A DNA stretch of 64,000 bases, taken from assembly GCA_009914755.4 (NCBI GenBank), contig CP068257.2, positions 43,648,001-43,712,000 on the forward strand. Direction: 5' to 3'. The first letter of the stretch is position 1. The number at the start of each line of letters is the position of its first letter. The position numbers were made by a program, and so were the translations under genes. This DNA comes from the human T2T-CHM13v2.0 reference genome, Homo sapiens. Shown here one piece after another: positions 1,633 to 64,000 of this stretch. Under the pieces are notes generated by a model that was not told where the DNA came from, did no database searches, and saw only the letters and a program-made list of their open reading frames with translations.

Positions 1633-1883
1633 CTGCGATGAACTGCTCATACTCGATGACAGGGATGTTTTTATTGAGACTTGGAAGATCAAAAAACTCA
1701 GACCAGGGAATCCGGACCTGGTGGATGTCAGGACTCTGCCAGTGATAGAGGCGGCCCCATGGAGGCAGGACAAGCACCCACTCCTCCGTCTTCAGCAGAG
1801 TCTTCAGGAGAGAGGCGATTCGGATATAGACATCCCTGCGCAGGTTGAAGCCTTCCGGGGGGTTGACGTCATACAGAAGATAC
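1633..1883 (-). CDS. POFUT2: POFUT2 coding exon 2 (251 nt, phase 2 in / phase 1 out). It encodes ...[84 protein letters not shown].
   Basis: The minus-strand translation matches the human POFUT2 N-terminal region as I remember it. The acceptor is a polypyrimidine tract followed by cag| at 1884-1885 (complement). The donor is CAG|GTGAGG at 1632-1627 (complement). The six-frame ORF 1355..1777(-) covers the exon and then reads into the intron. Confidence 0.9.
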
Positions 1884-3099
1884 CTGAGCAGGGAGAAGGA
1901 GGACCACAGGTCTCAAATGCTGAGGTTTCTGCACGGAAAACCCGACTGCTCACAAGTCTCAGCGCGTGGCCCGACTCTAGGCACTTAACAATGGTTCCTA
2001 GTTTGTGAAGGCAGTGAGTGGCCTGTTTCTCTATGACCAGTTACTTACGGAGCCTGTAAGCAGAAGCAGCAGACATGCTAACATCGTTTTAACAATTAGC
2101 AATAGTTCAACACTAAGGCAGAGGAATCCCAGTGACTGGAACCCAAGAATCAGTACCCACATGGTTCTCAAACTGTTTGGTCTAAAGACCCCTTTACACT
2201 GGAAACAATGACTGACGGCTGGTTATGTGCACTATGTCTATTGATACGTCCTATGTTAGACGTTAAAGCTACAAGTATTTAATTCAGCTAAAAATAAGAA
2301 GCCATTACATGTTAACAAAAACCACATATTTAAATAAAAAATAAGTGTATTTTAAAAAATGAATTAGAAGAACTGTGATGATGTTCTTAATTTTTGCAAA
2401 TCTCTTTTGGGTTTGGTGACAGCTGGATTCCCATACCCGTTTCTGCATTCAATCTGTTGTGACATCACAGATCAAGTGGTTTCTAGGAAAACTCCACAGT
2501 GCATTCATGAGAAGTGAAAAAGGCGTATAATACTCTGGTACTACTATTAAAACGGCTACAAAAGCTCAGAGATCCAGGACACACTTTAAGATCACTGCCC
2601 TAGAGGAAGGACACAAAGCGCCCCAAGGCACAGACAAGTCCCCAAGGCACAGACAAGTCCCCAAGGGCTACAGAAACCCTGTCCCTGGCGCTCTCCTTTC
2701 CCTGCTCTGCGCTGGTTTTCCATACTCCCATCGTCGCGAGTGAAGCTGCGTGCAGCGCCCAGGCCTGCGAACGCCACGAGGGGCCGTGCACACCTCTGCG
2801 TCCAGGCCCCTCCCGGGGTCCGCTTGGAGATCCCACAGCCACAGGGCGGCCGCGAAGCTCGTCTTGGCCCTGAGAATTCACTGCGGAGCGCCCGCCCGGC
2901 ACTGACTCCCGGCTCCGCACACCCAGGCCTGGACCCGTGTCACTTGCAGGGGCCTCCGGAGCCAGCCCACGCTCAGCCTGAGCAACCCGGCCCCCTTCCT
3001 GGGCTCCCGAGGCTGCGCCCCGGGCCTCGCAGACGACCCCGCCTGCAGACCCGGGCCGCAGTGACGCAGCCTCGACTACAGCCAACCCGCTGGCCCGAC

Positions 3100-3655
3100 C
3101 CTGCCCCCAGCCCCCGCCCCATCCCATCCCCCAGACTCCAGCCCGGCCCCGGCCCCTGCCCCTGCCCCTGCCCCTGTCCCGTCCCCGTCCCATCCTTCTT
3201 GGCCCCGGCTCCCGCCCCGCCCCCATCCCATCCCTCGGGCCCCCGTTCCTGCCCCCATCCCATCCCACCCCTCCTGGCCCTAGCCCCTGCCCCGCCCCCA
3301 TCCCATCCCATCACCCTGGCCCCTGCCCCGCCCCCATCCCATCCCATCGCCCTGATCCCTGCCCCGCCCCCATCCCATCCCTCCTGGCCCCTGCCCCCTG
3401 CCCCTAGACCATCACCCTGGCCCCTTACTCCGCCACATTCCTTGCCCCAGAACCCTGACCCCATCCCATTCCCCTGACCCCTGCCCCCTGACCCCGCTCC
3501 ATCCCATCCCCCTGGCCCCTGCCCCATAACTCCGCTCCATTCCATCTCCCTGGCCCCGGACCACCCTCCATCCCGTGGGCCTGCCCCTGACCCCATCCCA
3601 TCTCCCTGGCCCCTGACCCCGCCCCGCCCCCATCCCATCCTCTGACCCTGCCCGG
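3100..3655. repeat. C-rich minisatellite, ~12 imperfect units of ~40-55 bp (motif ccctgccccgcccccatcccatccc...ccctggcc). It lies inside POFUT2 intron 1, so it is G-rich on the transcribed/coding strand.
   Basis: Recurring cccatcccatccc / ctgccccgccccc blocks across 3100-3655. The six-frame proline-rich pseudo-ORF 2740..3477(+) is its translation. Confidence 0.9.
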
Positions 3656-4800
3656 TCCTGGAACCCCAGCGTTGGCACCGTGGACGCGCGTTTACCGTCT
3701 GCGGGAAGCCGCCCCCGACAGAATATCGGCCGCCGATTGTCCGGGCCAGAACTCCTGGCCGGAGGCAGAAGCCGGAGGCCAGGACACTGCCCCCAGCAGC
3801 AGGAAGACGAAGCTGAGTGTCGCCATGGCCCCGGGCGGCCACGCACTTCCGGCGGCCGCGCCCCGCCCCGGAACCACGCCCCGCCCCCGTGAAATGCGTT
3901 CCCAGTAGCCACGGCAACGCCCAGCTCCGCCCTCCCGGCGCATGCGTTATGCGCCATCACCGGCAAGCAGGGGCGGGAGGGGGAACTGCGCGTGCGCAGA
4001 GTCTCCGCCCTCCTGACCGCAGCGGCTAGAGGTTCCATTGCAGACCCGGAGGCCGTGGCTGTGGTTCGCGGCGGTGCTGTCGCGGGCGCCCTGGCGCAGC
4101 CCACGCAGGGGCTCCTGAGGGTCCGCGAGGCCGGGAGGTCCGGGGGTCGGGAGGTCCCGGGGTCGGGAAGTCGGTGGACCCTGCAGGCCAGTGGGGAGGG
4201 TACGCGAGACTGGGGGCCGGGAGGGCTGACGGCTGGTGGCGCGGGGCGGGTCCGTGGGGAGGAGGCCCGGGGCTGGTAGGGGCGGGAGGGCTGGACGGCG
4301 GGGGCGGGGCGGAGGAGGGGGTCCGTAGACGGGGTCGGCGCCGGGTGCTCTCGCCCCTCTGGAGCTGGGGTCGGGGCGGGAGCCGCGCATGAGAGCCTGG
4401 GTTTCTAGTCGGGGGGCGCCGTCGAGCTCCACACCTGCGGCCTCCTGGGTGCCCCCAACCCTGGAGCCCCGGCGAGGGGGCACCCGGGCTGAGGCCTGGC
4501 CCTCCAAGGAGCCCTGGAGGGACTGTGCTGCTAGGGCGCGGGGCTCGATGGGGTGATCTGGAGACCTGGGGGGATCCGGGGCTGCCGCCCCTGCGCTGCC
4601 AACCTCCCACCCCGCCCCTTCTGCGAGGCGTTATTAAAGGTCTGGTTTCGGGAGCCAGGTGCGTGCCCGCCGCCGCCGCTCCCCGCAGCCTCCAGGCAGC
4701 TCCCGCTGTTCCCCGAGGGCACCAGCACTGGCCGACCGACCTGGCTTGGGGCGCGGCGCTGGCAAACCCGGCCTTCTGAGGGGACGCCACGCTGACTCTA
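3640..4800. promoter_or_regulatory. TATA-less CpG island / promoter of POFUT2 (transcribed leftwards), probably bidirectional. It contains an NRF-1-like palindrome GCGCATGCG (3937-3947) and Sp1 GC boxes (e.g. GGGGCGGG at 3970-3977).
   Basis: CpG density is very high (cgcgcg, ccgg, gcgc clusters) from ~3650 to ~4790. The island sits immediately 5' of the POFUT2 ATG and there is no TATA box. Confidence 0.7.
3696..3826 (-). CDS. POFUT2: POFUT2 coding part of exon 1 (ATG at 3826-3824). It encodes [43 protein letters not shown] plus 2 nt of the next Arg codon, including a signal-peptide-like N-terminus.
   Basis: The six-frame ORF 3692..3943(-) contains [44 protein letters not shown]. The donor is acg|GTAAAC at 3695-3694 (complement), and the reading frame joins exon 2 exactly (RRR-YLLYDV). 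Confidence 0.9.
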
Positions 4801-7644
4801 GTGCAGGCAGCCCCCAAAACGGTATAATTGGACGAATTTCTTGAAGGATGCCAGTTACCAAAAAAGAAAATACTAATGCTTATTATCTGTTAAATTTGAG
4901 ATCAATTTGTTATCAAATTTTCTCACACAGAAAATTCCAGGCCCAGAGGGCCAAGCTGGTGAATCCTACTTAGAGAAGAAATAATAGGAATCCAGCCACT
5001 CAGACGATGGACGAGGAGGGGCACTTCCCTGCTCGATGTATGGGCCAGCATTGCCTTGATAGCAAAGTCAGACATCACCAGACAGTAGAACCACAGACCA
5101 ATGTCTTTCATGAACCAAGACACAGCATTTAAAAAAATTAGCAAATGGAATTTATATCTGCCTATTGTTTACAAAAAAAGCCAAACTTTGTAAAATACTT
5201 GAAGAGATTTATTCTGAGCCAAATATGACCCATGACACAGCCTCAGGACGTCCTGAGAACTTGGCCCAAGGCGGTTGTTTTACTGCTTGGTTTTATTCAT
5301 TTCAGGGAGACATAAGACATCAGTCAGTACATGTGAGGTGTGCATTGGATTGATCCAGAAAGTCAGGACGACTCCAAGTGGAAAGGCCTCCAGGTAATAG
5401 GTGGATTCAAAGATGTTTCTGATTGGCAGTTGGTTGAAAGAAGTTACTATCTGAAGGCTTGGAATCAATAGAAAGGAGTGTCTGGGTTAAGAGAAGGGGC
5501 TGTGGAGACCGAGGTCCTTATTATGTGGATGAAATCTCATAGGTGTCCGCCCTCAGAGGCAATACATGGCAAATGTTTCCTATTCAGACCTTCAAAAGGC
5601 ACTAGACTCTCAGCCAGTCTCCTCAGGATCAGAAAAAGAGCTGGAAAGGGAAGGGGAGTCTACAGAATATGAATTTCCCCACAAGACACCGCTTTGCGGG
5701 GCCATTTCAAAATTTGTCAAAGAGATATATTTTGGGGTAAAATACATTGATACTTTGAGGGCCTGTTGTCACGTGATGCTATACCAGCGTCAGATTGGAA
5801 CTTGGTGTCTTGCTGCTATGGAGTCTGCTGTCAGTCTGGTCAGCTGCACCTGAACTCCAAAGGGAGGTGGGTATAATGAGCCATGTCCAATCCCCGTCCC
5901 TTCCTGGCCTGAGCTCATTTTTCAGGTTCTTCAGAATCCCCCTGGTGGAGATGAGGGATCCGTTCAGTGGGTTGGGGAAGCTTAGAGTTTTATTTTTGAT
6001 TTACACTATGTGAAGCAGAAATTAAAATACTGTAACCCTGATAGGGTTATTTTAAAGCTGCAGGAATCAAGGCAGGTTGCCGTGGGTAAGAGGATAGACA
6101 GGCAGGTCATGTAGCAGGACGAGCTGCGGACAAAACCCCTCAGACACCAGGTTAAGGAAGGATTTGGCTTTATTCGGCCGGGAGCTTCGGCAGACTCGCG
6201 TCTCAAGAACCGAGCTCCCCGAAAACAGAGTTCCTGGCCCTTTTAAGGGCTTACACCTCTAAGGGGTCCACGTGAAAGGGTCGTGATAGATTGAGATCAC
6301 ATGTGGTTAGAGTGGGAGGGGGGGGTAATCTTTTAACCTCAGGCCTGGTCATCGGTGGCACCGGCTGGTCTTGCTGCTGACTTCATTCCTGTTGTTTTTC
6401 AACTTTTACTTCATCCTTCTCTTCAGAGACAGGAGACAGTAAAAGAAATGGCCTCTCTCCTCTGTCAGAGTGGAGTCCCGAGCTCCCAGAAATGCCACAT
6501 GATGGACAAACGCTTGGGGGAAAAAAAAAAAAAGGAGACCTCAGTCGGACACAAAAGCAGGAGCTTTAAAAGAAAAAATAAGAGATAAGTTGAACTTCAC
6601 CAAAAAATAAGCGTTTCTGGTCTTTGAAAGACACTTAAAATGAAAAGGCAAGCCATCGATGGGGAAAATACTCAGAATAATGGATCTGACAGAGGGCTGT
6701 ATCTAGAATATATGAAGATATTTTAAAATCCAGTAATTTGACATAAAGATGGTAGCCAGCCTGACACACAAAGGAACCCGAATGGCCAATGGACAGGAAG
6801 GGAACCCGTATGGCCGATGGACAGAAAGGGAAGTGAACGTGAACATCTCATTGGGGATGCCGTTATCACCACTGGAATAGTCAAAAACATGGACACCAAG
6901 TATTGGTGGGTGAGTGGAATGGCGGGAACCCACATACACGGTCGATGGGAGCTGCACCCTTTGGAAATCATTTCACAGTTTGTGCTCCATCCTGGCCAAA
7001 CCCACAGCTGGAGTCTTTCCAAAAACAGTGACGGGAGTTTCCACCAGGGAGTGCCTCAAACCATCCCGAGATGGGGCTGGTTGGGATTCCAGGGAGAGGC
7101 ACTCGTTGCCAGGGTGATCCGTCCAGAGCACTTCCTAGGGGATCTGGCATAAGGAGGGCTGCAGTGTATCCTCAGGACAGATAGGACAGATAGTGTATCT
7201 TTGGGACAGACGGCAAGATGGGGATTCCACCCAGGTCTGTCTGCAGCGAGTTGATATGAGAGTTTAAGGAATTTGGACCAGGGCTGCTTTGTTTCAGGGT
7301 TTTGGGCAATGACCTAAACACCTTTATCAGTGCCTGGGAATGCTCAAGGCCCAGCTTGAGTTCAGGCCTGCAGGGAAAACCTGCAACTGGCCGGGCCGCA
7401 GAGTGGTCAGGGCACGGAAAGCCAGAAGCTGGGGACACACCTGCTGTATGATCCAGCCGTTCGTCTTTACCTGGGAGAAATGGCACCACCTGGCTGAACA
7501 TAACTTCTTACACACCCGTGAGTCCTCCTGGACAGGTGCTGTGACCTCGTGCAGCCTTGGGGACCCTGACACTCCCACGGACAGGCCAAGGGGTTTGCCT
7601 GGGCCCTGTGGGCACAGAGTCCCTTGAGATGGGTTTCCCTATGC

Positions 7645-23544: not shown

Positions 23545-24180
23545 ACACACATGCGTGCACGTGCAAATACACATCAGGGACACACGTGCACAGACATGCT
23601 CCAGGAACATGAACGCATGTGCAAATACACACCAGGAACACACGTGCACAGACACACTCCAGGAATATGCATACTTGTGCAAATACACACCAGGAACACA
23701 CGTGCACAGACACACTCCAGGAATATGCACGCATGTGCAAATACACACCAGAAACACACGTGCACAGACACACTCCAGGAATATGCATACTTGTGCAAAT
23801 ACACAGCGGGAACACACGTGCACAGACACACTCCAGGAATATGCATGCATGTGCAAATACACAGCGGGAACACACGTGCACAGACACACTCCAGGAATAT
23901 GCATACTTGTGCAAATACACACCGGGAACACACGTGCACAGACACACTCCAGGAATATGCATACTTGTGCAAATACACACCAGTAACACGTGCACAGACA
24001 CACTCCAGGAATATGCATGCATGTGCAAATACACACCGGGAACACACATACACAGACACACTCCAGGAATATGCATGAACAATACACCAGGAACATACGT
24101 GTACAGACACACTCCAGAACACACACAGATGGCAGATGTGCAAATACACACCAGGAATGCACACGTAGAAATGCACAAAA
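23545..24180. repeat. 59-bp VNTR, ~10.5 copies (unit gtgcaaatacacaccaggaacacacgtgcacagacacactccaggaatatgcatacttgt).
   Basis: 'gtgcaaatacaca' recurs every 58-59 bp from 23561 onwards. Several overlapping Cys/His-rich pseudo-ORFs in the track (23381..24223 -, 23395..24162 -, 23416..24078 +, etc.) are translations of this array. Confidence 0.95.
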
Positions 24181-30840: not shown

Positions 30841-32510
30841 GAACTACAAACTGCTGCTCAAGGAAACCAGAGAGGACACAAGCAGATGGAAAAACATTCC
30901 ACGCTCATGGATAGAAAGAATCAATGTTATGAAAATGGCCATACTGCTCAAAGCAATTTATAGATTCAATGCTATTCCCATTAAACTACCATTGACATTC
31001 TTCACAGAATTAGAAAAAACTATTTAAAAATCCATACGGAACCAAAAAAGAGCTCTCATAGCTAAGACAATCTTAAGCAAAAATAACAAAGCTGGAGGCA
31101 TCATGCTACCTGACTTCAAAATATACTACAAGGCCACAGTAACCAAAACAGCATGGTACTGGTACAAAAACAGACACATAGACCAATGGAACAGAATAGA
31201 GAACTCAGAAATAACACCATATGTCTACAACCATCTGGTCTTCGACAAGCCAAACAAAAACACGCAATGGGGAAAGGATTTCCTAGTTAATAAATGGTGC
31301 TGGGAGAACTGGCTAGCCATATGCAGAAAATTGAAACTGGACACCTTCCTTACACCTTATGCAAAAATTAACTCAAAGTGGATTAAAGCCTTAAATGTAA
31401 AACCCAAAACTATAAAAACCCTAGAAGAAAATCTAGGCAATGCCATTCAGGACATGGGCACAGGCAAAGATTTTATGATGAAAATGCCAAAAGCAATGGC
31501 AACAAAAGCAAAAACTGACAAATGGGATCTAAATAAACTAAAGAGCTTCTGCACAGCAAACGAAACTATCATTAGAGTGAACAGACAACCTACAGAATGG
31601 GAGAACATTTTTTGCAATCTGTTTGTCTGACAAAGGTTTAACACTTAGAATCTACAAGGAACTTAAGCAAATTTACAAGAGAAAAACAAACAACCCCATT
31701 AAAAAGTGCACAAAGGATATGAACAGACACTTCTCAAAAAAAGACATACATGCAGCCAACAAATGCATGAAAAAAGGCTTAACATCGCTGGTCATTAGAG
31801 AAATGCAAATCAAAACCACAATGAGTTCTCATGCCAGTCAGAATGGTAATTATGAAAAAGTCAGGAAACAGCACATGCTGGCAAGGCTGTGGAGAAATAG
31901 GAACACTTTTACACTGCCGGTGGGAATGTAAATTAGTTCAACCATTGTGGAAGACAGTGTGGTGATTCCTCCAAGATTGAGAACCAGAAATACCATTTGA
32001 GAAGCTATCCCATAACTGGGTATATACCCAAAGGAATATAAATTATTATAAAGATACATGCACACGTATGTTCACTGCAGCACTATTCACAATAGCAAAG
32101 ACATGGAATCAACCCAAATGCCCATCAGTGATAGACTGGATAAAGAAAATGTGGTACATATAGACCATGGAATACTATGCAGCTATAAAAAGGAACGAGA
32201 TCACGTCCTTTGCAGGGACATGGATGAAGCTGAAAGCCATTATCCTCTGCAAACTAACAAAGGAACAGAAAACCAAACACCGCATGTTCACTTATAAGTG
32301 GGAGCTGAACAATGAAAACATACGGACACAGGGTGGAGAACAACACACACCAGGTCCTGTTGGGGGAGGGTGGGGGTGGAGAGCATTAGGGAAAAGAGCT
32401 AATGTGTGCTGGGCTTCATACCTAGGTGATGGGTTGATAGGTGCGGCAAACCACCATGGGACATGTTTACCCATGTAACACACCTGCACATATACACCGG
32501 AACTTAAAAA
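30800..32510 (+). mobile_element. Sense 3' segment of the same primate-specific L1 (L1PA-like): ORF2 C-terminal third plus 3' UTR. Its L1 position continues directly from where the inverted segment stops. About 30 bp around ...SKRIKYLGI... is missing at the junction.
   Basis: Plus-strand ORFs: 30821..31027 ([67 protein letters not shown]), 31103..31630 ([36 protein letters not shown]...[18 protein letters not shown]...) and 31623..31931. The 3' UTR carries the G-rich stretch ggagggtgggggtggagag and ends ...cacctgcacatatacaccggaacttaaaaag. Confidence 0.85.
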
Positions 32511-40369: not shown

Positions 40370-40890
40370 AGGGGAGTGGGAGGGAGGTGAGGGGGTGGGG
40401 GTGGGAGGGAGGTGAGGGGGTGGGGATGGGAGGGAGGTGAGGGGGGTGAGAGGGAGGTGAGGGGGGTGGGGGTGAGAGGGAGGTGAGGGTGGGGGCAGGA
40501 GGGAGGTGAGGGGCGTGGTGGTGGGAGGGAGGTGAGGGGGGTGAGAGGGAGGTGAGAGGGTGGGGGCAGGAGGGAGGTGAGAGGGTGGGGGCAGGAGGGA
40601 GGTGAGGGGGGTGGGGGCGGGAGGGAGGTGAGGGGGTGGGGGTGGGAGGGAGGTGAGGGGATCAGTGTGGGAGGGAGGTGACAGGGTGGGAGGGAGGTGA
40701 GGGGGTGGGGGTGGGAGGGAGGTGAGGGGCGTGGTGGTGGGAGGGAGGTGAGGGGGGTGAGAGGGAGGTGAGAGGGTGGGGGCAGGAGGGAGGTGAGGGG
40801 GTGGGGGTGGGAGGGAGGTGAGAGGGTGGGGGCAGGAGGGAGGTGAGGGGGTGGGGGTGGGAGGGAGGTGAGGGGGTAGGGTGGGGTGAA
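40370..40890. repeat. G-rich VNTR, ~20 units of ~25 bp (gggagggaggtgagggggtgggggt, with variants).
   Basis: 'gggagggaggtgag' recurs every 24-39 bp. The 488-aa proline-rich pseudo-ORF 39880..41346(-) (PPSHPHPLTSLPPPP...) is its minus-strand translation. Confidence 0.95.
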
Positions 40891-42572: not shown

Positions 42573-44727
42573 CTCTGTTTCTAACTGAGTCAGAGCCAAG
42601 ATTAGAAAAGGCTGAAACCACCCCCTACAACCCAGGGCCCTGGCGCCTTTGCCAGCTGTTTCTAATCAGTCCGTGGTGTCAACCACATGGTGTTGCCCCA
42701 GGATCCCCGAAGCCAAGTCAGCCTTCACTGTGGAGGAGCAGGGCGGCCTTGAAAGGAGCTCTGTCCTCCATGGGGCCTCGGCCAGGAAGGCACAAAGGGG
42801 CTTTGTCCCCAGCCCAAGCCTGGAAGACCCTCCTCCAGCTGTGGCCCTCGGGACTGTCTGGCCGGCTCGTCCTTGGGGGTTGCATCTCCCCAGGCTGCAG
42901 CATGGGCCCCAGTCAGCCGCTGAGGTGCAGAGGATGAGAAATTCCACAGAAAAGCATGTACGGACACCTTGGGGAAGCTTCCGGAAGAATGCATGCAGGA
43001 GGCTAGCCACATGCCCAGGGTGGGACTCGGGTCCAGTTCCCTGCTCCTGCCCCCACAGCATCCTCAAAGCACTGAAACATGAGCGCATGGGCCGTGGGGA
43101 CGCACTGTCGGAGGTCACTGCCTGACCCGGTGCCCAGTGTCTGCCCTGGCCCGTACGGTCCCATCGATCTGCCCCAGACGTGCTGCAGCCGTGTGTTCAG
43201 GGCCCCAGGTCCCCCTAACTCCCGGGCTTGGCTTCCCCCGATACCACCCACGCTGGTCATCTCTTAGTCACCCTGACAATGGCCACTGCTCACAGGACAG
43301 TCCCACGCTCTGTGGCTGGGTGTGGAGGCCCCCACTGGCCCTTCCTGATACCTCTGCCCCCTCTTTTCTCCTCTCTCCCTCCTGTCCCACCCCTGGCTGC
43401 AGTTGACTCTAACATTTCACTGGCATTCACCCCGGCACAGCTCACAGGCTGCATTGCTACCTCTGGGCTTTGCTGCCTGGTGAGGTGTGGGCATCCTTCA
43501 AAGCCCAGTTCCCCAATCACCTCTTCCGGGAAGCCTCCCCTGACTGCCTGGGTGGCAATGACTCCTCCCCTTCTGTGTGCAATGGAAACAGGTGGCCTGA
43601 GGAGTCAAACGGTGCAAACCCTGCCCCACTCTGTTTGGGAAGCACCTGCTGTGTGGCAGGCGCTGCGCTTGGTGCTGGGGATAGACCATGGGGAAGAAAC
43701 ACACAGAACCTGCCCTGCTCTCAAGGAACAGGCCCTGGGGGCGGCCGGGGGCAGAGACCCAAGGCAGACACCCACACAGTGGCGTAATGACAGTGCTTAT
43801 GGTGGGGACCTGGCTGCACAGCAGGTCAGCAAGGGGATGTTCAGGTGACACTGGGGGCACGGAGACCCAGGGGAGAGTGGATTGACAGAGGGGACGCTGG
43901 GCAAATGTCCCGAGGCTGAGGTGGAGTTGCGGGAAGGAGGAGGCTGCCGGGCAGAGGCGCAGAGAGCTTTGCAGGTGTTGGCAGAGACCAGCAGGCCCTG
44001 CGAGGCCTGGGGTGTGTCCTCAGCTGGGAGGGCCATAGAAGGATCTGGGCTTGCAGATGCTGGTGCAGACTGGAGGCCTGGGGTGTGAGAGTCCAGGCGG
44101 GGCTCCTGCCAACACCCAGGGGAGTGGGCCTGGGCCAGGTGGACCGGGAGCTGGCACGGTGGTCAGGTGCTTGGAGGCTGCGTGCCACGCTGGGGACCTG
44201 GAGGTGTGTGAGGAGGTGTCTGTTGCTCCTGGGGCTGCCGCCTGCAGGGCTGGGTGTGCAGCAGTGCGGGGCAATGAAGTGGGCGGGTTCTGGGATGGTG
44301 GACGTTCCCTTTGTTGGGAACGTGTTGGTGCCAAGCTGCCATTTGAGTTTGGCTCTGAGGGGTCTGGGCAGGGGACACACAGGGAATCACACAGGATGGA
44401 GTGAGTTCCCAGGGACCCAGGGTGGCTTGGCCTGAGAACAGCTCCCACTCCCAGATGTGTGGGAAGCCCTCGGCACCAAGCCTCAGCCTCTCCATCTGTG
44501 AAATGGAGACAACGTCACTGGACTTGCAGGCTGTCCATGAGGGTGATGCGATCAGAAAGGGTGGAGTTCCTGAACGCCCCGGGGTCGGGGTCTCACAGCA
44601 GGAGCTTAGCTGGTGTCGGCATCTCCTGGACCCGTCCTCAGCTCCGAGCGCCCAGTCCTGCCACCTGTGTCCAAGTCTGCACTGTGCCCACGAGGCCCTC
44701 AAGGCCGCAGACAGCCCCACACTTCTC

Positions 44728-44868
44728 GGACGCCGCCCCAGCACGGTCCTTGTGTGAGGTGGACACTCCTTCTGGACGCCGCCCCAGCACGGTCCTTGTG
44801 TGAGGTGGACACTCCTTCTGGACGCCGCCCCAGTACGGTCCTTGTGTGAGGTGGACACTCCTTCTAGG
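44728..44868. repeat. ~46-bp tandem repeat x3 (gacgccgccccagcacggtccttgtgtgaggtggacactccttctg).
   Basis: Three copies. The track ORFs 44401..44757, 44459..44803 and 44613..44849 all end ...RRPSTVLV because of it. Confidence 0.9.
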
Positions 44869-48704: not shown

Positions 48705-49235
48705 TCAGGGCCGTGTGTGTGCCCATGTGTGGTATTTGTGTGTGTGCGTCTGTGCATCTGTGTCAGTGTGTCTGTGTCTGTGAGTCTGTGTGTCTGTATC
48801 TGTGTGTCGGTGCATCTCTGTGTCTGTGTGTGTCTGTGTCTGTGTGCCTGTGTGTGTGTCTGTCACTGTGTGTGTGTCTGTGTGTCTGTGCATCTGTGTG
48901 TCTGTGTGTGTCAGTGTGTCTGTGTGTGTGTCTCAGTGTGTCTGTATCTGTGTGTTGGTGCATCTGTGTGTCTGTGTCTGTGTCTGTGTGCTTGGGTGTC
49001 TGTCACTGTGCGTCCGTGTGTCTGTGCATCCGTGTGTCTCTGCATATGTGTGTGTGTGTCAGTGTGTCTGTATCTGTGTGTTGGTGCATCTCTATGTCTG
49101 TGTATGTGTGTCAATGTGTCTGTGTGCTTGTGTGTCTGTCACTGTGTCTGTGCATCCATGTGTCTGTGCGTCTGTGTGTCTGTGCATCCGTGTGTCTGTG
49201 CATATATGTCTGTGTACGCACACAGCTGATCCTCT
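48705..49235. repeat. ~530 bp GT-rich cryptic minisatellite (tgtgtctgtg / tgtgcatctgtg units).
   Basis: Continuous (TGTGTCTG)-like periodicity. The multi-frame Cys/Val-rich and His/Thr-rich pseudo-ORFs 48713..49237(+), 48717..49229(+), 48790..49320(+) and the minus-strand set come from it. Confidence 0.9.
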
Positions 49236-51399: not shown

Positions 51400-51915
51400 C
51401 ATGTGCCCCCTCCCCAAATATGTGCCCCTCCCCAGACCTGTGCCCCCTCCCCAGATCTGTGCCCCTCCCCACACCTGTGCCCCCTCCCCGGATCTGTGCC
51501 CCCTCCCCGGACCTGTGCCCCCTCCCCAGACCTGTGCCCCCTCCCCGGACCTGTGCCCCCTCCCCAGACCTGTGCCCCCTCCCAGGCCTGTGCCCCCTCC
51601 CGGGCCTGTGCCCCCTCCCTGGATCTGTGCCCCCTCGCCGGGCCAGTGCCCTCTCCCTGGACCTGTGCCCCCTCCCCAGGCCTGTGCCCCCTCCCTGGAT
51701 CTGTGCCCCTCCCCGGACCTGTGCCCCCTCCCTGGATCTGTGCCCCCTCGCTGGGCCAGTGCCCTCTCCCTGGACCTGTGCCCCCTCCCCAGGCCTGTGC
51801 CCCCTCCCCGGACCTGTGCCCCCTCCCAGACCTGTGCCCCCTCCCCAGACCTGTGCCCCCTCCCCAGACCTGTGCCCCCTCCCCAGGCCTGTGCCCCCTC
51901 TCTGGGCCTGTGTTT
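51400..51915. repeat. 19-bp VNTR, ~27 copies (agacctgtgccccctcccc, with variants ggacc / ggatc / ggcc).
   Basis: Strict 19-bp periodicity. The 351-aa pseudo-ORF 50971..52026(+) (...PSPDLCPLPGPVPPPQTCA... with a 19-aa period) and three minus-strand Gly/Arg-rich ORFs are its translations. Confidence 0.95.
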
Positions 51916-56741: not shown

Positions 56742-57722
56742 GCATCCATCCATCCATCCATCCATCCATCCATCCACCCACCCACCCATCCATCCATCCA
56801 TCCATCCATCCATCCATCCACCCACCCGTCCATCCATCCATCCATCCGCCCACCCGTCCATCTATCCACCCATCCATCCACCCACCCGTCCATCTATCCA
56901 CCCATCCATCCACCCACCCGTCCATCCATCCACCCATCCATCCATCTATTTATCCATCCATCCATCTATCCACCCACCCATCCATCCATCCACCCATCCA
57001 TCCATCCATCCACCCATCCACCCGTCCATCCATCCATCCATCCACCCACTCGTCCATCCATCCATCCATCCATCCATCCATCCATCCATCCACCCACCCA
57101 CCCGTCCATCCATCCACCCATCCATCCATCTATCCACCCACCCGTCCATCCATCCACCCACGCGTCCATCCATCCATCCATCCACCCACCCATCCATCCA
57201 TCCACCCACCCGTCCATCCATCCACCCATCCATCCATCCATCCACCCATCCATCCATCCATCCGTCCATCCACCCACCCATCCGTCCATCCACCCACCCA
57301 CCCGTCCATCCATCCATCCATCCATCCACCCATCCATCCATCCATCCATCCATCCACCCACCCGTCCATCCATCCACCCACCCGTCCATCCATCCACCCA
57401 TCCATCCATCTATCCACCCATCCATCCATCTATCCACCCACCCGTCCATCCATCCACCCACCCGTCCATCCATCCACCCATCCATCCATCCATCCATCCA
57501 CCCATCCACCCGTCCATCCATCCATCCACCCACTCGTCCATCCATCCATCCATCCACCCACCCGTCCATCCATCCACCCACCCGTCCATCCATCCATCCA
57601 CCCATCCATCTATCCATCCATCCATCCATCCATCCATCCATCCATCCATCCATCTATCCATCCATCCATCTATTTATCCATCCATCCATCTATTTATGCA
57701 TCCGTCCATCCATCCATCCCTC
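56742..57722. repeat. ~1 kb (CCAT)n-type simple repeat with CACC/CGTC/CTAT variant units and apparent higher-order blocks. On the minus strand it is (GGAT/GGTG)n.
   Basis: Uninterrupted 4-bp periodicity, catccatccatccacccacccgtccatcc... The pseudo-ORFs 56642..57766(+), 56721..58022(+) ([16 protein letters not shown]...) and 56946..57653(-) ([12 protein letters not shown]...) are its translations. Confidence 0.97.
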
Positions 57723-59390
57723 CGTTTGCTCATTTCCACCCAGGAATCCATCATCTCTCAAACTAAGGTTTCGACATCATTCCTTCTTTTCAGAAAGTGC
57801 AAACCAAAGCTAAGACTGGCTCACACATGCCACGCGGGAGTTAGAGTGAGAGCATTTTTCAGATCCTTGTTCTCTTCTGGCCCCACCTCCCGCAGTTTCT
57901 GGAAGTCCCAGGACAGGGAAAAGGAGAGAAAGGCAGAAAAGAAATTATCGAGTGTGGCTCTTCCCTCTCCTCAGAGGAAATTGTTCACCTGCCACCCTCG
58001 GAAATTTAATTTTCAGTGTTAAAACTTGAAATTTTATAGTAGTATGTGTACCAAAGTTATAAAATGGGCAAACTTGTCTAAACGAGGATTCCTACATTGT
58101 TATGACATTTTCCCCAGAGAATCACAAGCTCTGAGATACACTTGTGAACCTTACTTATGCAGACATTCTCTTAAACTGGGATTCTTTCTCTCAGTTTACC
58201 TTAGGCTAACACAGAAACATATTTTGACACAGAAAGAATTTTTTCTCTTCATTGCTCAAGTCACCTGGAGGCAGCTCCTGCCTGGGGTGGATGCCTCCGA
58301 CCCCTGGGAATGACCCCTGCAGCCACCACTGAGCCCCCCACAGAAGGAGGCTCGTGCCTGGTCCAGCTTTCCCACCCGGGGTCTCTGTGGCTGGCTCCCC
58401 CCAGCTCGGGGCAGAAGCCTAATTCAGGGTTGTTCTGCTCAGTTGATCCAGTCGGACGCTAGGATTTGCCTGGGGGCCCGGCCTGCCAGCAGTACAGGTG
58501 AGGGGACGCAGGCTTGGTCACAAGCACCCCTGCTGACCTTCCCTACAGACCTGGCACATTTAATCTTCTTCTTTGGGGAGGAGAAGAGGATGCATTCAGA
58601 AATGCCTTTGCTGATGAGGCCCTCAGGAGCTTGTACTGGAATCACTCAAAATTCCCAAGTAGCCTGAGTGTCCTAATTCATTTCTGTGTACATCTGCCTA
58701 ATTCTCAATCCACGTCTAAGGTTAGAATGAACATTTGAATTAGCCATTCTGGACAACACACACACGCACTATACCATGCATTTAGATCTCTCTGTACCTT
58801 GCTCGTGTCAGCACAAACGCAGCCCCTCTCTTTTCAAAAGCCCGGTTCGTTTTCCAGCAGGCGCGTGCTTTCATTAGACTTTCCCTCCTGTGGGTTCTGG
58901 CAGATTTCCCAACACAAGCACGGCAGGAAGTGCATTGTGTTTGTAGAAAATCCAAAATAATCTCTAGGTGAGTGTTAGGATGAAAAATGAATTTAGTGTT
59001 GGTACAGGTTTTTGCTTGTTGTACTTTTTGTGGGGGAGGGTGATAAAAATATTCCAAAATTGATTGCGATGATGGTTGTGCAATTCTGTGAATATACTAA
59101 CAAGCACTGAACTCTATACTGCAAACAGGTGAACTGTATGGTATGTGAATTATATTTTAATAAAGCTGTTATTTTTAAAAAGTAAATTTAGCAACAACAC
59201 TGGATACAAGCTAAATATACAAAAATTAATTATCTTTATACAGACCAGCAACTAATAATTAGAAAATGAGCATTTTTAAATGATACCATTTTGGTAGTAT
59301 CAAAACCCATCAATTACCTAGTAACTGTTCAGTAAAATATTCCAAAAACAGCAAAACATTGACTAAGGTACATTAAAGAAGATTTAAATA

Positions 59391-59680
<290 letters not shown>

Positions 59681-59947
59681 TTAAATAAAGGAAGGGATAT
59701 GATATGTTTATGGATTAAAAGCAAGTTAAAAACAAGTTAACAAACACAACAATTGATCTATAAATTCCATGTAATCACCATTAAAATCCAGGCCAAAGTG
59801 TGTGAGTGTGTGTGTGTTGCGGGTTGGGGGTTGCCAAGCTAAAGTTTACGTGGGAATGGACGGGGCAAGAACAGCAAGACGACCTTGAGGACGACCAAAG
59901 CGAGGGACTCGGCCCCCAGGTGCCAGTGCCCACCACAAAGCTATAGG

Positions 59948-60172
59948 AGTCCAGGCCAGGCCACACAGCGGTCAGTGAAGTGGGATGGAAGGTCCAGACC
60001 AGGCCACACAGCGGTCAGTGAAGTGGGATGGAAGGTCCAGACCAGGCCACACAGCGGTCAGTGAAGTGGGATGGAAGGTCCAGACCAGGCCACACAGTGG
60101 TCAGTGAAGTGGGATGGAAGGTCCAGACCAGGCCACACAGCGGTCAGTGAAGTGGGATGGAAGGTCCAGAAA
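59948..60172. repeat. 43-bp tandem repeat x5 (ggtccagaccaggccacacagcggtcagtgaagtgggatggaa).
   Basis: 'ggtccagacc' recurs at 59991, 60034, 60077 and 60120. The track ORFs 60071.. and 60114..(+) both begin MEGPDQATQ.SVKWDGRSR because of it. Confidence 0.95.
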
Positions 60173-60680
60173 CACGCACATGGGACACTTGATCCACAAC
60201 AGATTCAGGATTGCAGACCAGGGGCACGGGGAACCTCTTTACTCGTGGTACCAGCTCAGTTGCAGATGCATACGGAACGCAGGAAGCCGGGGCCCCACGT
60301 TCCCCCATATGCAGTCTGCAAATGCAAACACGGAGGCTGAAACAAACACGTCTGGAAGAAATCACAGGGGAGCATCTCCCCTGCTGTGCCCAGGATCCAC
60401 GGGTGAGCAAGACAGGGTCCCTGTCCGGATGGGGTTTCATTTGGGGGTGCGGAGGGGGTGCAGAACCAAAAAAAAACCAAGCAAGCGAGTGAAACAGGGA
60501 GCTCGGAAGTGGGCGCTCGCATAGGCCAAGGTGGGGAAGGCTGGCAGGCACGTGTGTGTGCAAGGACACCAAATGTTGATCTGCAGAGCAAAGCTGGGCA
60601 ACAGCAACCACATTAACCAATAGACGTCGGCTTATCCAGGCCATGGGACGATGTGTAGCTGTTAACATAAAGGTCTATCT

Positions 60681-61316
<636 letters not shown>

Positions 61317-62114
61317 TCAGACAGAGCCTGTGGCAGAGGCCATGGAGGATTTTCTGGTGGCCACAGACTGTCCTGTGGAATTCCAGCTCGTCGTTGGTCA
61401 ATGGGATGAAGTTTGGCTTTAGAGGTGGATGAGACAAGTTGGGCTCTACCCAGAGCAAACTAAAGCTGCTCCTGGTCAACAAACACCAGCTTAGCTGGCC
61501 CAACCGATGCCTCGGCCCCGGACACACAGCTGGGGGGAGGCCGGGTGAGGAGACTCTGTCCGTGGGATTCCACCTGCCCCGTGGGAGTGAGAGCACAGGC
61601 ATCGCTCACGGCGCTGCAGACCATGTCCACCACAGTGCAGCGCAGCCCTCTAGGCTGCGCCCACATTGCCCAGGCTCCGCTCGGCCTCATCCTCGATTTC
61701 AGGCCTCTGTGACTTACCCTTGGGGCCCAGCATAGCACAGACACTATGTCTGTTTAAATAGGAGAGCATAGAAAAGCCGAGTCCCTGCAAGGGACAACCG
61801 GCTTGAGATGACAGTCAGGGTCTCAGGCGAGACGGCCTCCAGCCGCCTTCAGAGCAGGTGCCTATCAGCGGGGCCACGTGGTGGTTTCACAGTGCCTTGG
61901 TCCCCAGTGCCGAACCTGCCCCCTTGCCCGAAAGCCGGGCTAAGCCAAGCAGCTGTGGTTGACGGTTTTGCCTCAGGAATTGTGTGTGTAATTTAGCGAC
62001 AAAACAAAGCAGGCACAAGGAAGACTCAAACAGGGAGGTCCCTGAAGATGGGAGACAAATGACCAATGGACAGAATTTCATGTCCTATTGGTGGCCTAAC
62101 AGCTTGGAGAAGCA

Positions 62115-64000
62115 TTCCAACTGGATTTTCAACACAAGGAATTGGTTAGACGTCCCTGGCGGGGTGTGTCTCTTCCAGCTGGATTTTCAACACAGGGAAT
62201 TGGTAACACGTCCCTGGCGGGGTGTGTCGCTTCCAGCTGGATTTTCAACACAGGGAATTGGTTAGACGTCCCTGGCGGGGTGTGTCGCTTCCAGCTGGAT
62301 TTTCAACACAGGGAATTGGTTAGACGTCCCTGGCGGGGTGTGTCGCTTCCAGCTGGATTTTCAACACAGGGAATTGGTAACACGTCCCTGGCGGGGTGTG
62401 TCGCTTCCAGCTGGATTTTCAACACAAGGAATTGGTTAGACGTCCCTGGCGGGGTGTGTCACTTCCCACTGGATTTTCAACGCAGGGAATTGGTTACACG
62501 TCCCTGGCGGGGTGTGTCGCTTCCAGCTGGATTTTCAACACAGGGAATTGGTTAGACGTCCCTGGCGGGGTGTGTCGCTTCCCACTGGATTTTCAACACA
62601 GGGAATTGGTTAGACGTCCCTGGCGGGGTGTGTCGCTTCCCACTGGATTTTCAACGCAGGGAATTGGTTACACGTCCCTGGCGGGGTGTGTCGCTTCCAG
62701 CTGGATTTTCAACGCAGGGAATTGGTTAGACGTCCCTGGCGGGGTGTGTCGCTTCCAGCTGGATTTTCAACACAGGGAATTGGTTAGACGTCCCTGGCGG
62801 GGTGTGTCGCTTCCAGCTGGATTTTCAACACAGGGAATTGGTTAGACGTCCCTGGCGGGGTGTGTCGCTTCCCCCTGGATTTTCAACGCAGGGAATTGGT
62901 TAGACGTCCCTGGCGGGGTGTGTCGCTTCCCACTGGATTTTCAACGCAGGGAATTGGTTACACGTCCCTGGCGGGGTGTGTCGCTTCCAGCTGGATTTTC
63001 AACGCAGGGAATTGGTTAGACGTCCCTGGCGGGGTGTGTCGCTTCCAGCTGGATTTTCAACACAGGGAATTGGTTAGACGTCCCTGGCGGGGTGTGTCGC
63101 TTCCAGCTGGATTTTCAACACAGGGAATTGGTTAGACGTCCCTGGCGGGGTGTGTCGCTTCCCCCTGGATTTTCAACGCAGGGAATTGGTTACACGTCCC
63201 TGGCGGGGTGTGTCGCTTCCCACTGGATTTTCAACACAGGGAATTGGTTAGACGTCCCTGGCGGGGTGTGTCGCTTCCAGCTGGATTTTCAACACAGGGA
63301 ATTGGTAACACGTCCCTGGCGGGGTGTGTCGCTTCCCACTGGATTTTCAACACAGGGAATTGGTTAGACGTCCCTGGCGGGGTGTGTCGCTTCCCACTGG
63401 ATTTTCAATGCAGGGAATTGGTTAGACGTCCCTGGCGGGGTGTGTTGCTTCCAGCTGGATTTTCAACACAGGGAATTGGTTAGACGTCCCTGGCGGGGTG
63501 TGTCGCTTCCAGCTGGATTTTCAACACAGGGAATTGGTTAGACGTCCCTGGCGGGGTGTGTCGCTTCCAGCTGGATTTTCAACACAGGGAATTGGTTAGA
63601 CGTCCCTGGCGGGGTGTGTCGCTTCCAGCTGGATTTTCAACACAGGGAATTGGTTAGACGTCCCTGGAGGGGTGTGTCGCTTCCAGCTGGATTTTCAACA
63701 CAGGGAATTGGTTACACGTCCCTGGCGGGGTGTGTCGCTTCCAGCTGGATTTTCAACACAGGGAATTGGTTAGACGTCCCTGGCGGGGTGTGTCGCTTCC
63801 AGCTGGATTTTCAACACAGGGAATTGGTTAGACGTCCCTGGCGGGGTGTGTCGCTTCCAGCTGGATTTTCAACACAGGGAATTGGTTAGACGTCCCTGGC
63901 GGGGTGTGTCGCTTCCAGCTGGATTTTCAACACAGGGAATTGGTTAGACGTCCCTGGCGGGGTGTGTCGCTTCCAGCTGGATTTTCAACACAGGGAATTG
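62115..64000. repeat. 58-bp macrosatellite/minisatellite, >32 tandem copies (unit ctggattttcaacacagggaattggttagacgtccctggcggggtgtgtcgcttccag). It is truncated by the window edge. Unit variants: ttagacg/taacacg/ttacacg; cagctgg/ccactgg/cccctgg; caacacagg/caacgcagg.
   Basis: Exact 58-bp spacing of 'ctggattttc' (62121, 62179, 62237...). The repeat continues without change to base 64000. The track ORFs 62142.. to 63614..(+) all read ...RRPWRGVSLPAGFSTQGIG.TSLAGCVASSWIFNTGNWLDVPGGVCRFQLDFQHRELV... with a 58-aa (3-unit) period. Confidence 0.97.

What the first reader, a model, noticed from the sequence alone, without database searches (positions are those of the whole stretch)
62115..64000. 58-bp macrosatellite with more than 32 copies running off the window edge, with a stop-free 58-aa-period frame
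This is the largest array in the window. It is 1.9 kb long and not finished at base 64000. Three unit positions vary (ttagacg/taacacg/ttacacg; cagctgg/ccactgg/cccctgg; caacacagg/caacgcagg). The variants are scattered rather than simply alternating, so any higher-order structure needs the whole array to be seen. Because 58 is not divisible by 3, three units give a 174-nt, 58-codon period. One plus-strand frame stays open across many units (RRPWRGVSLPAGFSTQGIG.TSLAGCVASSWIFNTGNWLDVPGGVCRFQLDFQHRELV). I regard coding as unlikely. The persistent open frame plus a conserved ATG per trimer is unusual enough to check for transcription or translation. Its true size and boundaries cannot be judged from this window.
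Basis: seen in the sequence. Interest (0 to 1): 0.55.

Follow-up and report, generated by a model that had tools for sequence, protein, structure and literature searches.

The report
Ordinary non-coding 58-bp human minisatellite
This is a real but ordinary non-coding tandem repeat (a 58-bp minisatellite of at least 32 copies) in the gene-poor, repeat-rich end of human chromosome 21 near POFUT2; the 'open reading frame with an ATG' that made it look special is not there.

Summary
The array is real. It has a 58-bp unit, 32.5 gap-free head-to-tail copies at 96% identity, spans 62115-64000, and is cut by the window end. The feature that made it notable is not. The consensus unit carries TAG, so every plus-strand frame hits one stop per 58 codons. 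There are 27 stops in the three plus frames, and the longest open stretch is 154 aa. Neither strand of the consensus contains ATG; the array has one ATG, in unit 23. The translation has no relative among 5.8 billion proteins and no Pfam match. The window holds POFUT2 exons 1-2, with 47/47 residues identical to the human protein, plus Alu and L1 pieces. This places it at human 21q22.3, about 58 kb beyond the POFUT2 promoter, in a window that is 12% tandem repeats. Interspersed variant units, a 5-unit (290-bp) internal duplication and a homogeneous 3' block indicate unequal exchange and conversion. With a 58-bp unit it is a minisatellite (VNTR), not a macrosatellite. It meets the sequence criteria for a CpG island, and each unit carries an E-box palindrome, a CCAAT box, an ACGT core and a GC-box-like motif, so a regulatory side-effect is possible but untested. 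Interest is low.

The parts
62115..64000 (.). 58-bp minisatellite array: 32 full units plus 30 bases, cut by the window end. Consensus TTCCAGCTGGATTTTCAACACAGGGAATTGGTTAGACGTCCCTGGCGGGGTGTGTCGC.
   Evidence: TRF gives period 58, 32.5 copies, 96% matches, no indels, score 3457. There are 31 matches against 0 expected.
62115..62172 (.). First unit, the most diverged one (3 differences from consensus). It marks an abrupt 5' boundary: the sequence upstream is not unit-like.
   Evidence: Unit table. Local alignment of 61900-62114 to the unit scores no better than shuffles: 18 against a mean of 19, and 21 against 21.
62637..62926 (.). First copy of a 5-unit (290-bp) block, unit types E-G-C-C-H.
   Evidence: Unit-type map, and self-identity highest at lag 5 (0.967).
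62927..63216 (.). Second copy of the 5-unit block, types E-G-C-C-I. It differs from the first copy at one base (unit position 35). This is the footprint of an unequal exchange displaced by five units.
   Evidence: Unit-type map and unit sequences.
63449..64000 (.). Homogeneous 3' block inside the window. Seven of nine full units are the exact consensus, against 7 of 23 units further 5'.
   Evidence: Unit table. Fisher exact test p = 0.022.
1633..1885 (-). Context: POFUT2 exon 2 (approximate limits). It fixes the locus as human 21q22.3.
   Evidence: 47/47 residues identical to human POFUT2 in PDB 4AP5, E = 3.8e-28.
3700..3826 (-). Context: coding part of POFUT2 exon 1, with the start codon at 3826 ([14 protein letters not shown]...). 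The lower limit is approximate. It lies in a CpG-rich promoter region. The array starts about 58.3 kb away, on the non-transcribed side.
   Evidence: Six-frame peptide search. CpG observed/expected is 0.61-0.65 over 2001-6000.

Best explanation
The feature is a non-coding, moderately GC-rich minisatellite (VNTR) in intergenic human 21q22.3, about 58 kb beyond the POFUT2 promoter. This region is within about 1.5 Mb of the 21q telomere, where such arrays are very common. It has no gene-like function. It exists and changes because tandem copies misalign. Replication slippage, unequal sister-chromatid or meiotic exchange and patchy gene conversion duplicate, delete and homogenise units. That produces interspersed variant units, multi-unit duplications and runs of identical units. 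CpG deamination adds point variants.

Shown: the array anatomy, the absence of an open frame, the absence of protein or RNA family matches, and the genomic location. Inferred: the turnover mechanism, from the unit pattern and from established minisatellite biology. Not tested: length polymorphism between people.
For: The array is gap-free and head-to-tail with a 58-bp period. The unit length is not a multiple of 3, each plus frame has one stop per 58 codons, and there is no ATG. No protein homolog was found, and there were no Pfam, Rfam or tRNA matches.

Twelve unit types are interspersed. All four combinations occur for each pair of the three main variant sites (types C, G, E, F, H, I, L), as expected from conversion or recurrent mutation. 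A 290-bp 5-unit block is duplicated with one mismatch. The 3' block is more homogeneous than the 5' part, p = 0.022. Several variants are CpG transitions: position 20 CG/CA, position 56 C>T, position 57 G>A and position 19 C>T.

The locus is fixed by POFUT2 exons 1-2, Alu heads and an L1 ORF2 piece. The window holds 29 separate tandem arrays, 12% of its bases. This matches the reported 7- to 21-fold enrichment of long-unit GC-rich VNTRs in the last 5 Mb of human chromosome arms (PMC7608644).
Against: Length polymorphism, the defining property of a VNTR, could not be tested. The 3' end and true size are unknown. At 55% GC the array is below the >60% class that shows the strongest subtelomeric enrichment. 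Its CpG observed/expected of 0.71 and its dense transcription-factor-like motifs leave room for a regulatory role on top of neutral turnover. No RepeatMasker or Dfam comparison was possible, so origin from a transposable element is not excluded.
Confidence: 0.85

Rival explanations
1. Regulatory VNTR. The array acts as a copy-number-dependent cluster of transcription-factor sites, or as a CpG island or lncRNA promoter, influencing local methylation or the expression of neighbours such as POFUT2 or nearby lincRNAs. This would add to the best explanation rather than replace it.
For: The array meets the CpG-island sequence criteria: 1886 bp, GC 0.55, CpG observed/expected 0.71. That is the highest 2-kb value in the window, above the POFUT2 promoter at 0.65. 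Each unit carries a perfect 10-bp palindrome with an E-box (TCCAGCTGGA), a CCAAT box on the minus strand, GACGTC, GGCGGGG and a CACCC box. GC skew is +0.16. VNTR copy number is widely reported to correlate with nearby methylation and expression (bioRxiv 10.1101/2020.12.16.423078, abstract seen).
Against: The motif matches are short consensus strings recognised from memory. No binding, chromatin, methylation or expression data were available. CpG-transition variants suggest at least some germline methylation. There is no CTCF-like site in the array. No paper or held supplement links a VNTR to POFUT2 or the nearby lincRNAs.
Confidence: 0.12
2. Translated or coding repeat. The array would encode a 58-aa-period repeat peptide from the plus strand.
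For: Open stretches of 115-154 aa exist where variant units remove the TAG.
Against: There are 27 stops in the three plus frames and one TAG per consensus trimer in each frame. Neither strand of the consensus has an ATG. The unit length is not divisible by 3. No homolog exists among 5.8 billion proteins and there is no Pfam family.
Confidence: 0.01
3. The array is the internal tandem-repeat region of a transposable element (for example an SVA VNTR or an LTR U3 repeat), or a member of a dispersed satellite family shared by subtelomeres.
For: Many human VNTRs arise inside transposable elements. An 18-mer with a CCAAT box (AATGRCCAATGGACAGAA) in the 5' flank recurs at 6781-6796, which hints at a shared repeat-derived sequence nearby.
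Against: The unit has no other copy or significant weak match in the other 62 kb of the window. The 5' flank shows no SVA hexamer or Alu-like region abutting the array; the nearest Alu piece is about 1.15 kb upstream and ends in its own (AAAT)n tail. The other 58-bp array in the window is unrelated.
Confidence: 0.08
4. Assembly artefact: a collapsed or mis-assembled repeat rather than the true genomic structure.
For: Long near-identical arrays are prone to collapse. The 3' block is nearly uniform.
Against: The period is a perfect 58 bases with no indels, and the ordered, informative variant units include a clean 5-unit duplication. This looks like real sequence. The flanks are ordinary single-copy DNA.
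Confidence: 0.03

Closest known systems
Human GC-rich minisatellites / VNTRs of chromosome ends (for example MS32/D1S8, CEB1, MS205/D16S309, and the intronic VNTRs of PTPRN2, DLGAP2 and ABCA7)
   Same: The unit is in the 10-100 bp range. The array is gap-free and head-to-tail, extends for kilobases, and has interspersed variant repeats, multi-unit duplications and homogeneous runs. It lies in the repeat-dense terminal part of a chromosome arm (PMC7608644).
   Different: GC content is only 55%. There is no classical minisatellite core and no PRDM9 13-mer in the unit. Polymorphism was not measured here, and no dedicated literature on this locus was found.
Macrosatellites (D4Z4, DXZ4, RS447, TAF11-like)
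   Same: Both are tandem, CpG-rich arrays near chromosome ends with possible copy-number variation.
   Different: Macrosatellite units are kilobases long, often carry an ORF or promoter, and form arrays of tens to hundreds of kb. Here the unit is 58 bp and has no ORF. The term does not apply.
Coding VNTRs (for example the MUC1 60-bp repeat, and other mucin or LPA-type repeats)
   Same: The unit size is comparable to the MUC1 60-bp repeat, and copies are highly identical.
   Different: Coding VNTR units are multiples of 3 and keep one frame open. This unit is 58 bp with a stop in every frame and has no protein relatives.
CpG-island-like tandem repeats
   Same: The array meets the length, GC and CpG observed/expected thresholds.
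   Different: Methylation state and promoter activity are unknown. CpG-transition variants suggest that CpG sites are being lost by deamination.

Membership tests
Minisatellite / VNTR | Repeat unit of roughly 10-100 bp | tested here: met
   Period 58.
Minisatellite / VNTR | Uninterrupted head-to-tail tandem array of many copies | tested here: met
   32.5 copies, 0% indels, 96% matches.
Minisatellite / VNTR | Interspersed variant repeat units along the array (an MVR-type internal map) | tested here: met
   Twelve unit types, map ABCCBDECFEGCCHEGCCIFBFJCCCKLCCCC, and a 5-unit duplication.
Minisatellite / VNTR | Copy number varies between individuals | not testable with these tools
   Only one haplotype is available. 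The unit is absent from the searchable contig collections.
Minisatellite / VNTR | Location in the terminal, VNTR-rich part of a chromosome arm (typical of the class, not strictly defining) | tested here: met
   POFUT2 exons 1-2 are in the window. POFUT2 maps to 21q22.3, about 1.4 Mb from 21qter (from my own knowledge of the map). The window is 12% tandem repeats.
Macrosatellite | Unit length of about 1 kb or more | tested here: not met
   The unit is 58 bp. The only longer periodicity is a single 290-bp duplication.
Macrosatellite | Array spanning tens to hundreds of kb | not testable with these tools
   Only 1.9 kb is visible before the window ends.
Coding tandem repeat | Unit length divisible by 3, with one frame open through the array | tested here: not met
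   58 mod 3 = 1. Each plus frame has 8-10 stops and each minus frame has 20-22. The consensus trimer has a TAG in every plus frame.
Coding tandem repeat | Start codon, or inclusion in a protein with relatives | tested here: not met
   The consensus has no ATG. No homologs at E <= 1e-3. No Pfam families.
CpG island (Gardiner-Garden and Frommer sequence criteria) | Length >200 bp, GC >50%, CpG observed/expected >0.6 | tested here: met
   1886 bp, GC 0.551, observed/expected 0.709.
CpG island (functional sense) | Unmethylated in the germline or in tissues, with promoter-type chromatin | not testable with these tools
   No methylation or chromatin data. The CpG>TpG/CpA variants in units 6, 23 and at position 20 argue weakly against.
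SVA-type or other TE-internal VNTR | Array flanked by the element's own parts (hexamer plus Alu-like region upstream, SINE-R downstream) | tested here: inconclusive
   No such parts abut the 5' edge. The 3' side is outside the window, and no TE library was available.
Structured RNA gene family (Rfam) | Match to a curated covariance model | tested here: not met
   No match at gathering score in the window. At E <= 1 over 59500-64000 the only matches are Alu-derived ones and one weak SCARNA7 match at 59680-59844 (E = 0.73), none in the array. No tRNA.

The most novel reading that the evidence does not exclude
The array would be a copy-number-tunable regulatory module. At least 32 tandem copies of a composite site (E-box palindrome, CCAAT box, ACGT core, GC and CACCC boxes) form a CpG-island-like block. 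Its allele length would set local methylation, or the activity of a nearby lincRNA or POFUT2 promoter, on distal chromosome 21.
Probability: 0.08. Interest if true: 0.35.

Novelty: already known. Interest (0 to 1): 0.1.

Why it matters
It matters little beyond housekeeping. It is one of tens of thousands of human VNTRs, in a region where they are expected. Its only practical relevance is as a possible length-polymorphic marker, or as a local expression or methylation QTL on distal 21q. It is also a place where short-read mapping and assemblies are error-prone. The useful result here is negative: the apparent 'open frame with ATG' is a reading error, so no transcription or translation follow-up is warranted on that ground.

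Tried and rejected
1. Coding was rejected. I counted stops and ATGs in six frames, searched 5.8 billion proteins with the 149-aa open stretch and found nothing, and scanned Pfam with the array ORFs and the five flanking ORFs and found nothing.

2. RNA genes were rejected. Rfam at gathering score gave nothing. At E <= 1 there were only Alu-derived weak hits upstream plus one weak SCARNA7 match outside the array. There is no tRNA.

3. I looked for the family elsewhere. An exact 27-mer of the most conserved part gave 0 hits in the metagenome, prokaryotic-genome and viral contig collections. These collections are not designed for human DNA, so this says little.

4. I tested whether degenerate proto-units lie in the 5' flank. 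Alignment was no better than shuffles.

5. I tested for a relationship with the other 58-bp array at 23551-24117. There is none.

6. There are no CTCF-like sites or PRDM9 hotspot 13-mers in the unit.

7. Single-strand DNA folding of three units gave only modest z-scores of -1.8 and -2.8. Each unit has a 6-bp hairpin and a 10-bp palindrome, but no striking structure.

8. Literature was unproductive. I searched for the unit sequence, for POFUT2 or LINC00316 with VNTR or tandem repeat, and looked for supplements of four VNTR catalogue papers: two held files without a match, two held none. Nothing on this locus turned up. The one POFUT2 hit concerns an intronic SVA and is unrelated.

Full report
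**Observation**

The sequence from 62115 to the window end is a clean tandem array. Tandem Repeats Finder reports period 58, 32.5 copies, 96% matches, no indels and score 3457, the highest in the window. Cutting the array into 58-base units gives 32 full units and a 30-base stub. The consensus is TTCCAGCTGGATTTTCAACACAGGGAATTGGTTAGACGTCCCTGGCGGGGTGTGTCGC. A 31-base piece of the unit matches 31 times at up to 3 mismatches, always inside the array, against 0 in 100 shuffles.

- Positions 33/35: TTAGACG, TAACACG and TTACACG occur 24, 3 and 5 times.
- Positions 5-6: CAGCTGG, CCACTGG and CCCCTGG occur 23, 7 and 2 times, plus one CAACTGG.
- Position 20: A in 25 units and G in 8.

The array is the largest in the window and is cut in mid-unit at base 64000. 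That cut is a property of the window, not of the biology.

**The open-frame claim**

The consensus contains TAG (in GGTTAGACG). Because 58 = 3 x 19 + 1, that TAG enters each plus-strand frame once per three units. The consensus trimer therefore translates to the same 58-residue cycle in all three frames, with one stop (...STQGIG*TSLAG...). The minus strand has two stops per cycle.

In the real array the plus frames hold 10, 8 and 9 stops, and the longest open run is 154 aa. The minus frames hold 20-22 stops each. Those 27 plus-strand stops equal the 24 TAG units plus the 3 TAA units. Only the five TTACACG units lack a stop.

There is no ATG in the consensus on either strand. The only ATG in the array comes from a C>T change in unit 23. 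The longest open stretch has no relative at E <= 1e-3 among about 5.8 billion predicted proteins. Neither it nor the neighbouring ORFs match Pfam. Coding is excluded on the sequence alone.

**Where it is**

The window is human, or a very close ape relative. Alu 5' heads occur four times against 0.02 expected. Weak SRP/Alu-type Rfam hits lie at 59525-59650 and 60815-60964. An L1 ORF2 fragment lies at 31103-31630.

An ORF at 1355-1777 on the minus strand is 47/47 identical to human POFUT2 in PDB 4AP5, E = 3.8e-28. A peptide search places POFUT2 exon 2 at about 1633-1885 and the exon 1 start codon ([14 protein letters not shown]...) at 3826, both on the minus strand.

POFUT2 maps to 21q22.3, roughly 1.4 Mb from the 21q telomere (my own knowledge of the map). 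The array begins about 58 kb from the POFUT2 start codon on the untranscribed side, towards the telomere. This lies in the interval between POFUT2 and COL18A1, which holds only lincRNAs (again from memory).

The window contains 29 separate tandem arrays covering 12% of its bases. Published long-read comparisons report that VNTRs are enriched 7-fold in the last 5 Mb of human chromosome arms, and 21-fold for GC-rich long-unit VNTRs (PMC7608644). Another paper summarises the same enrichment and its link to double-strand breaks (PMC10097659). The array is therefore what this neighbourhood is expected to contain.

**Internal anatomy and likely dynamics**

Twelve unit types are present, and the map is ABCCBDECFEGCCHEGCCIFBFJCCCKLCCCC, where C is the consensus (14 units).

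- Units 10-14 (E-G-C-C-H, 62637-62926) and 15-19 (E-G-C-C-I, 62927-63216) are a 290-bp block duplicated with a single difference. Self-identity is highest at a lag of five units, 0.967. This is the footprint of an unequal exchange or slippage event displaced by five units.
- For each pair of the three main variant sites, all four combinations occur (types C, G, E, F, H, I, L). This is expected from patchy conversion between units or from recurrent mutation.
- The 5' part is heterogeneous (16 of 23 units are non-consensus), while the last nine full units are nearly uniform (2 of 9). Fisher exact p = 0.022. This suggests a recent local expansion of the consensus unit. Whether the trend continues beyond base 64000 is unknown.
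- The first unit is the most diverged. The upstream flank is not unit-like: alignment scores of 18 and 21 compare with shuffle means of 19 and 21. The 5' boundary is therefore abrupt.
- Several variants are CpG transitions: position 20 CG/CA, 56 C>T, 57 G>A and 19 C>T. This is the usual signature of deamination of methylated CpG.

These points are shown. That they arose by slippage, unequal exchange and conversion is inferred from established minisatellite biology.

**Other properties**

The array has GC 0.55 and CpG observed/expected 0.71. That is the highest value in the window, above the POFUT2 promoter region at 0.61-0.65 and well above the window mean of 0.375. It therefore meets the sequence criteria for a CpG island.

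Each unit contains the following:
- a perfect 10-bp palindrome holding an E-box (TCCAGCTGGA);
- a CCAAT box on the minus strand (AACCAATTC);
- GACGTC, GGCGGGG and a CACCC box;
- a 6-bp inverted repeat, CAGGGA / TCCCTG, with a 12-base loop.

Three units folded as single-stranded DNA are only modestly more stable than shuffles, with z = -1.8 on the plus strand and -2.8 on the minus strand. The array holds no CTCF-like site and no PRDM9-type 13-mer, no Rfam match and no tRNA. The motif readings are recognitions from memory of short consensus strings. They are a lead for a regulatory side-effect, not evidence of one.

**Relatives elsewhere**

The unit has no other copy or convincing weak match in the rest of the window. 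The second 58-bp array, at 23551-24117, is unrelated: its alignment scores are no better than shuffles. An exact 27-mer from the most conserved part is absent from the metagenome, prokaryotic genome and viral contig collections. These collections were not built for human DNA, so this result is uninformative about the human genome. No human or primate assembly could be searched. The full length, the 3' boundary, copy-number variation and the orthologous state in apes therefore remain untested.

**Literature**

No paper in the held library contains the unit sequence. None links POFUT2 or LINC00316 with a VNTR at this place. The single POFUT2 hit is about an intronic SVA. Of four VNTR catalogue papers, two had supplements held as text and neither mentioned the neighbouring genes; the other two had none held.

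**Comparison and verdict**

By unit size, architecture, internal variant map and location, this is a minisatellite (VNTR). The only defining feature I could not test is polymorphism.

- It is not a macrosatellite: the unit is 58 bp, not kilobases, and has no ORF.
- It is not a coding repeat: the unit is not a multiple of 3, every frame has stops, there is no ATG and there are no homologs.
- Origin inside a transposable element remains possible but has no support at the visible 5' edge.
- A regulatory role as a CpG-rich block of motifs is the most interesting reading that the data do not exclude. I put it at about 8-12%.

Overall this is an ordinary, already catalogued kind of human sequence. 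The one unusual property claimed for it does not exist, and interest is low.

Noticed in passing
window 1633-1885 (-) and 3700-3826 (-): POFUT2 exons 2 and 1, with the start codon at 3826, in a CpG-rich promoter region (CpG observed/expected 0.61-0.65 over 2001-6000). This identifies the window as human 21q22.3.
   Followed up: yes
window 1-64000: Tandem repeats are exceptionally dense: 29 separate TRF arrays cover 12% of the window, as expected for the terminal part of a human chromosome arm.
   Followed up: partly
window 56743-57723: (CATC)n of about 245 copies (981 bp, 84% matches). It produces spurious ORFs of 374-433 aa (HPSIHPSI...) on the plus strand and WMDG repeats on the minus strand.
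   Followed up: no
window 40372-40885: A G-rich 25-bp array (about 21 copies, with 165- and 216-bp higher-order periods). It carries 7 of the window's 23 exact matches to the PRDM9-type hotspot 13-mer CCNCCNTNNCCNC (23 found against 7.9 expected by chance), so it is a candidate recombination-hotspot motif cluster.
   Followed up: partly
window 23551-24117: A second array with the same 58-bp period (9.9 copies, 89% matches, CA/TG-rich). Alignment shows it is unrelated to the focal unit, so the shared period is a coincidence.
   Followed up: yes
window 6781-6796 and 62058-62073: A CCAAT-box-containing string, AATGRCCAATGGACAG (15 of 16 bases identical; by eye the match extends two further bases, AA), is shared between a 28-bp mini-array (6766-6832) and the 5' flank of the focal array. 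By my rough estimate about 0.01 such matches are expected by chance. It may be a shared repeat-derived or NF-Y-type element.
   Followed up: partly
window 59949-60170, 44722-44865, 56-234: Three short, very young-looking arrays: 43 bp x 5.2 copies at 98% matches, 46 bp x 3.1 at 97%, and 45 bp x 4.0 at 96%. They are further candidate VNTRs.
   Followed up: no
window 31103-31630; 59525-59650; 60815-61003: An L1 ORF2 fragment and two partial Alu elements, the second with an (AAAT)n tail about 1.1 kb upstream of the array. These are ordinary primate interspersed repeats.
   Followed up: partly
window 51402-51912 and 48737-49215: A 19-bp C-rich array (27 copies, with a 113-bp higher-order period) and a TG-rich 8/22-bp array. 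Both create long spurious ORFs in several frames, which cautions against reading open frames in repeats as evidence of coding.
   Followed up: no
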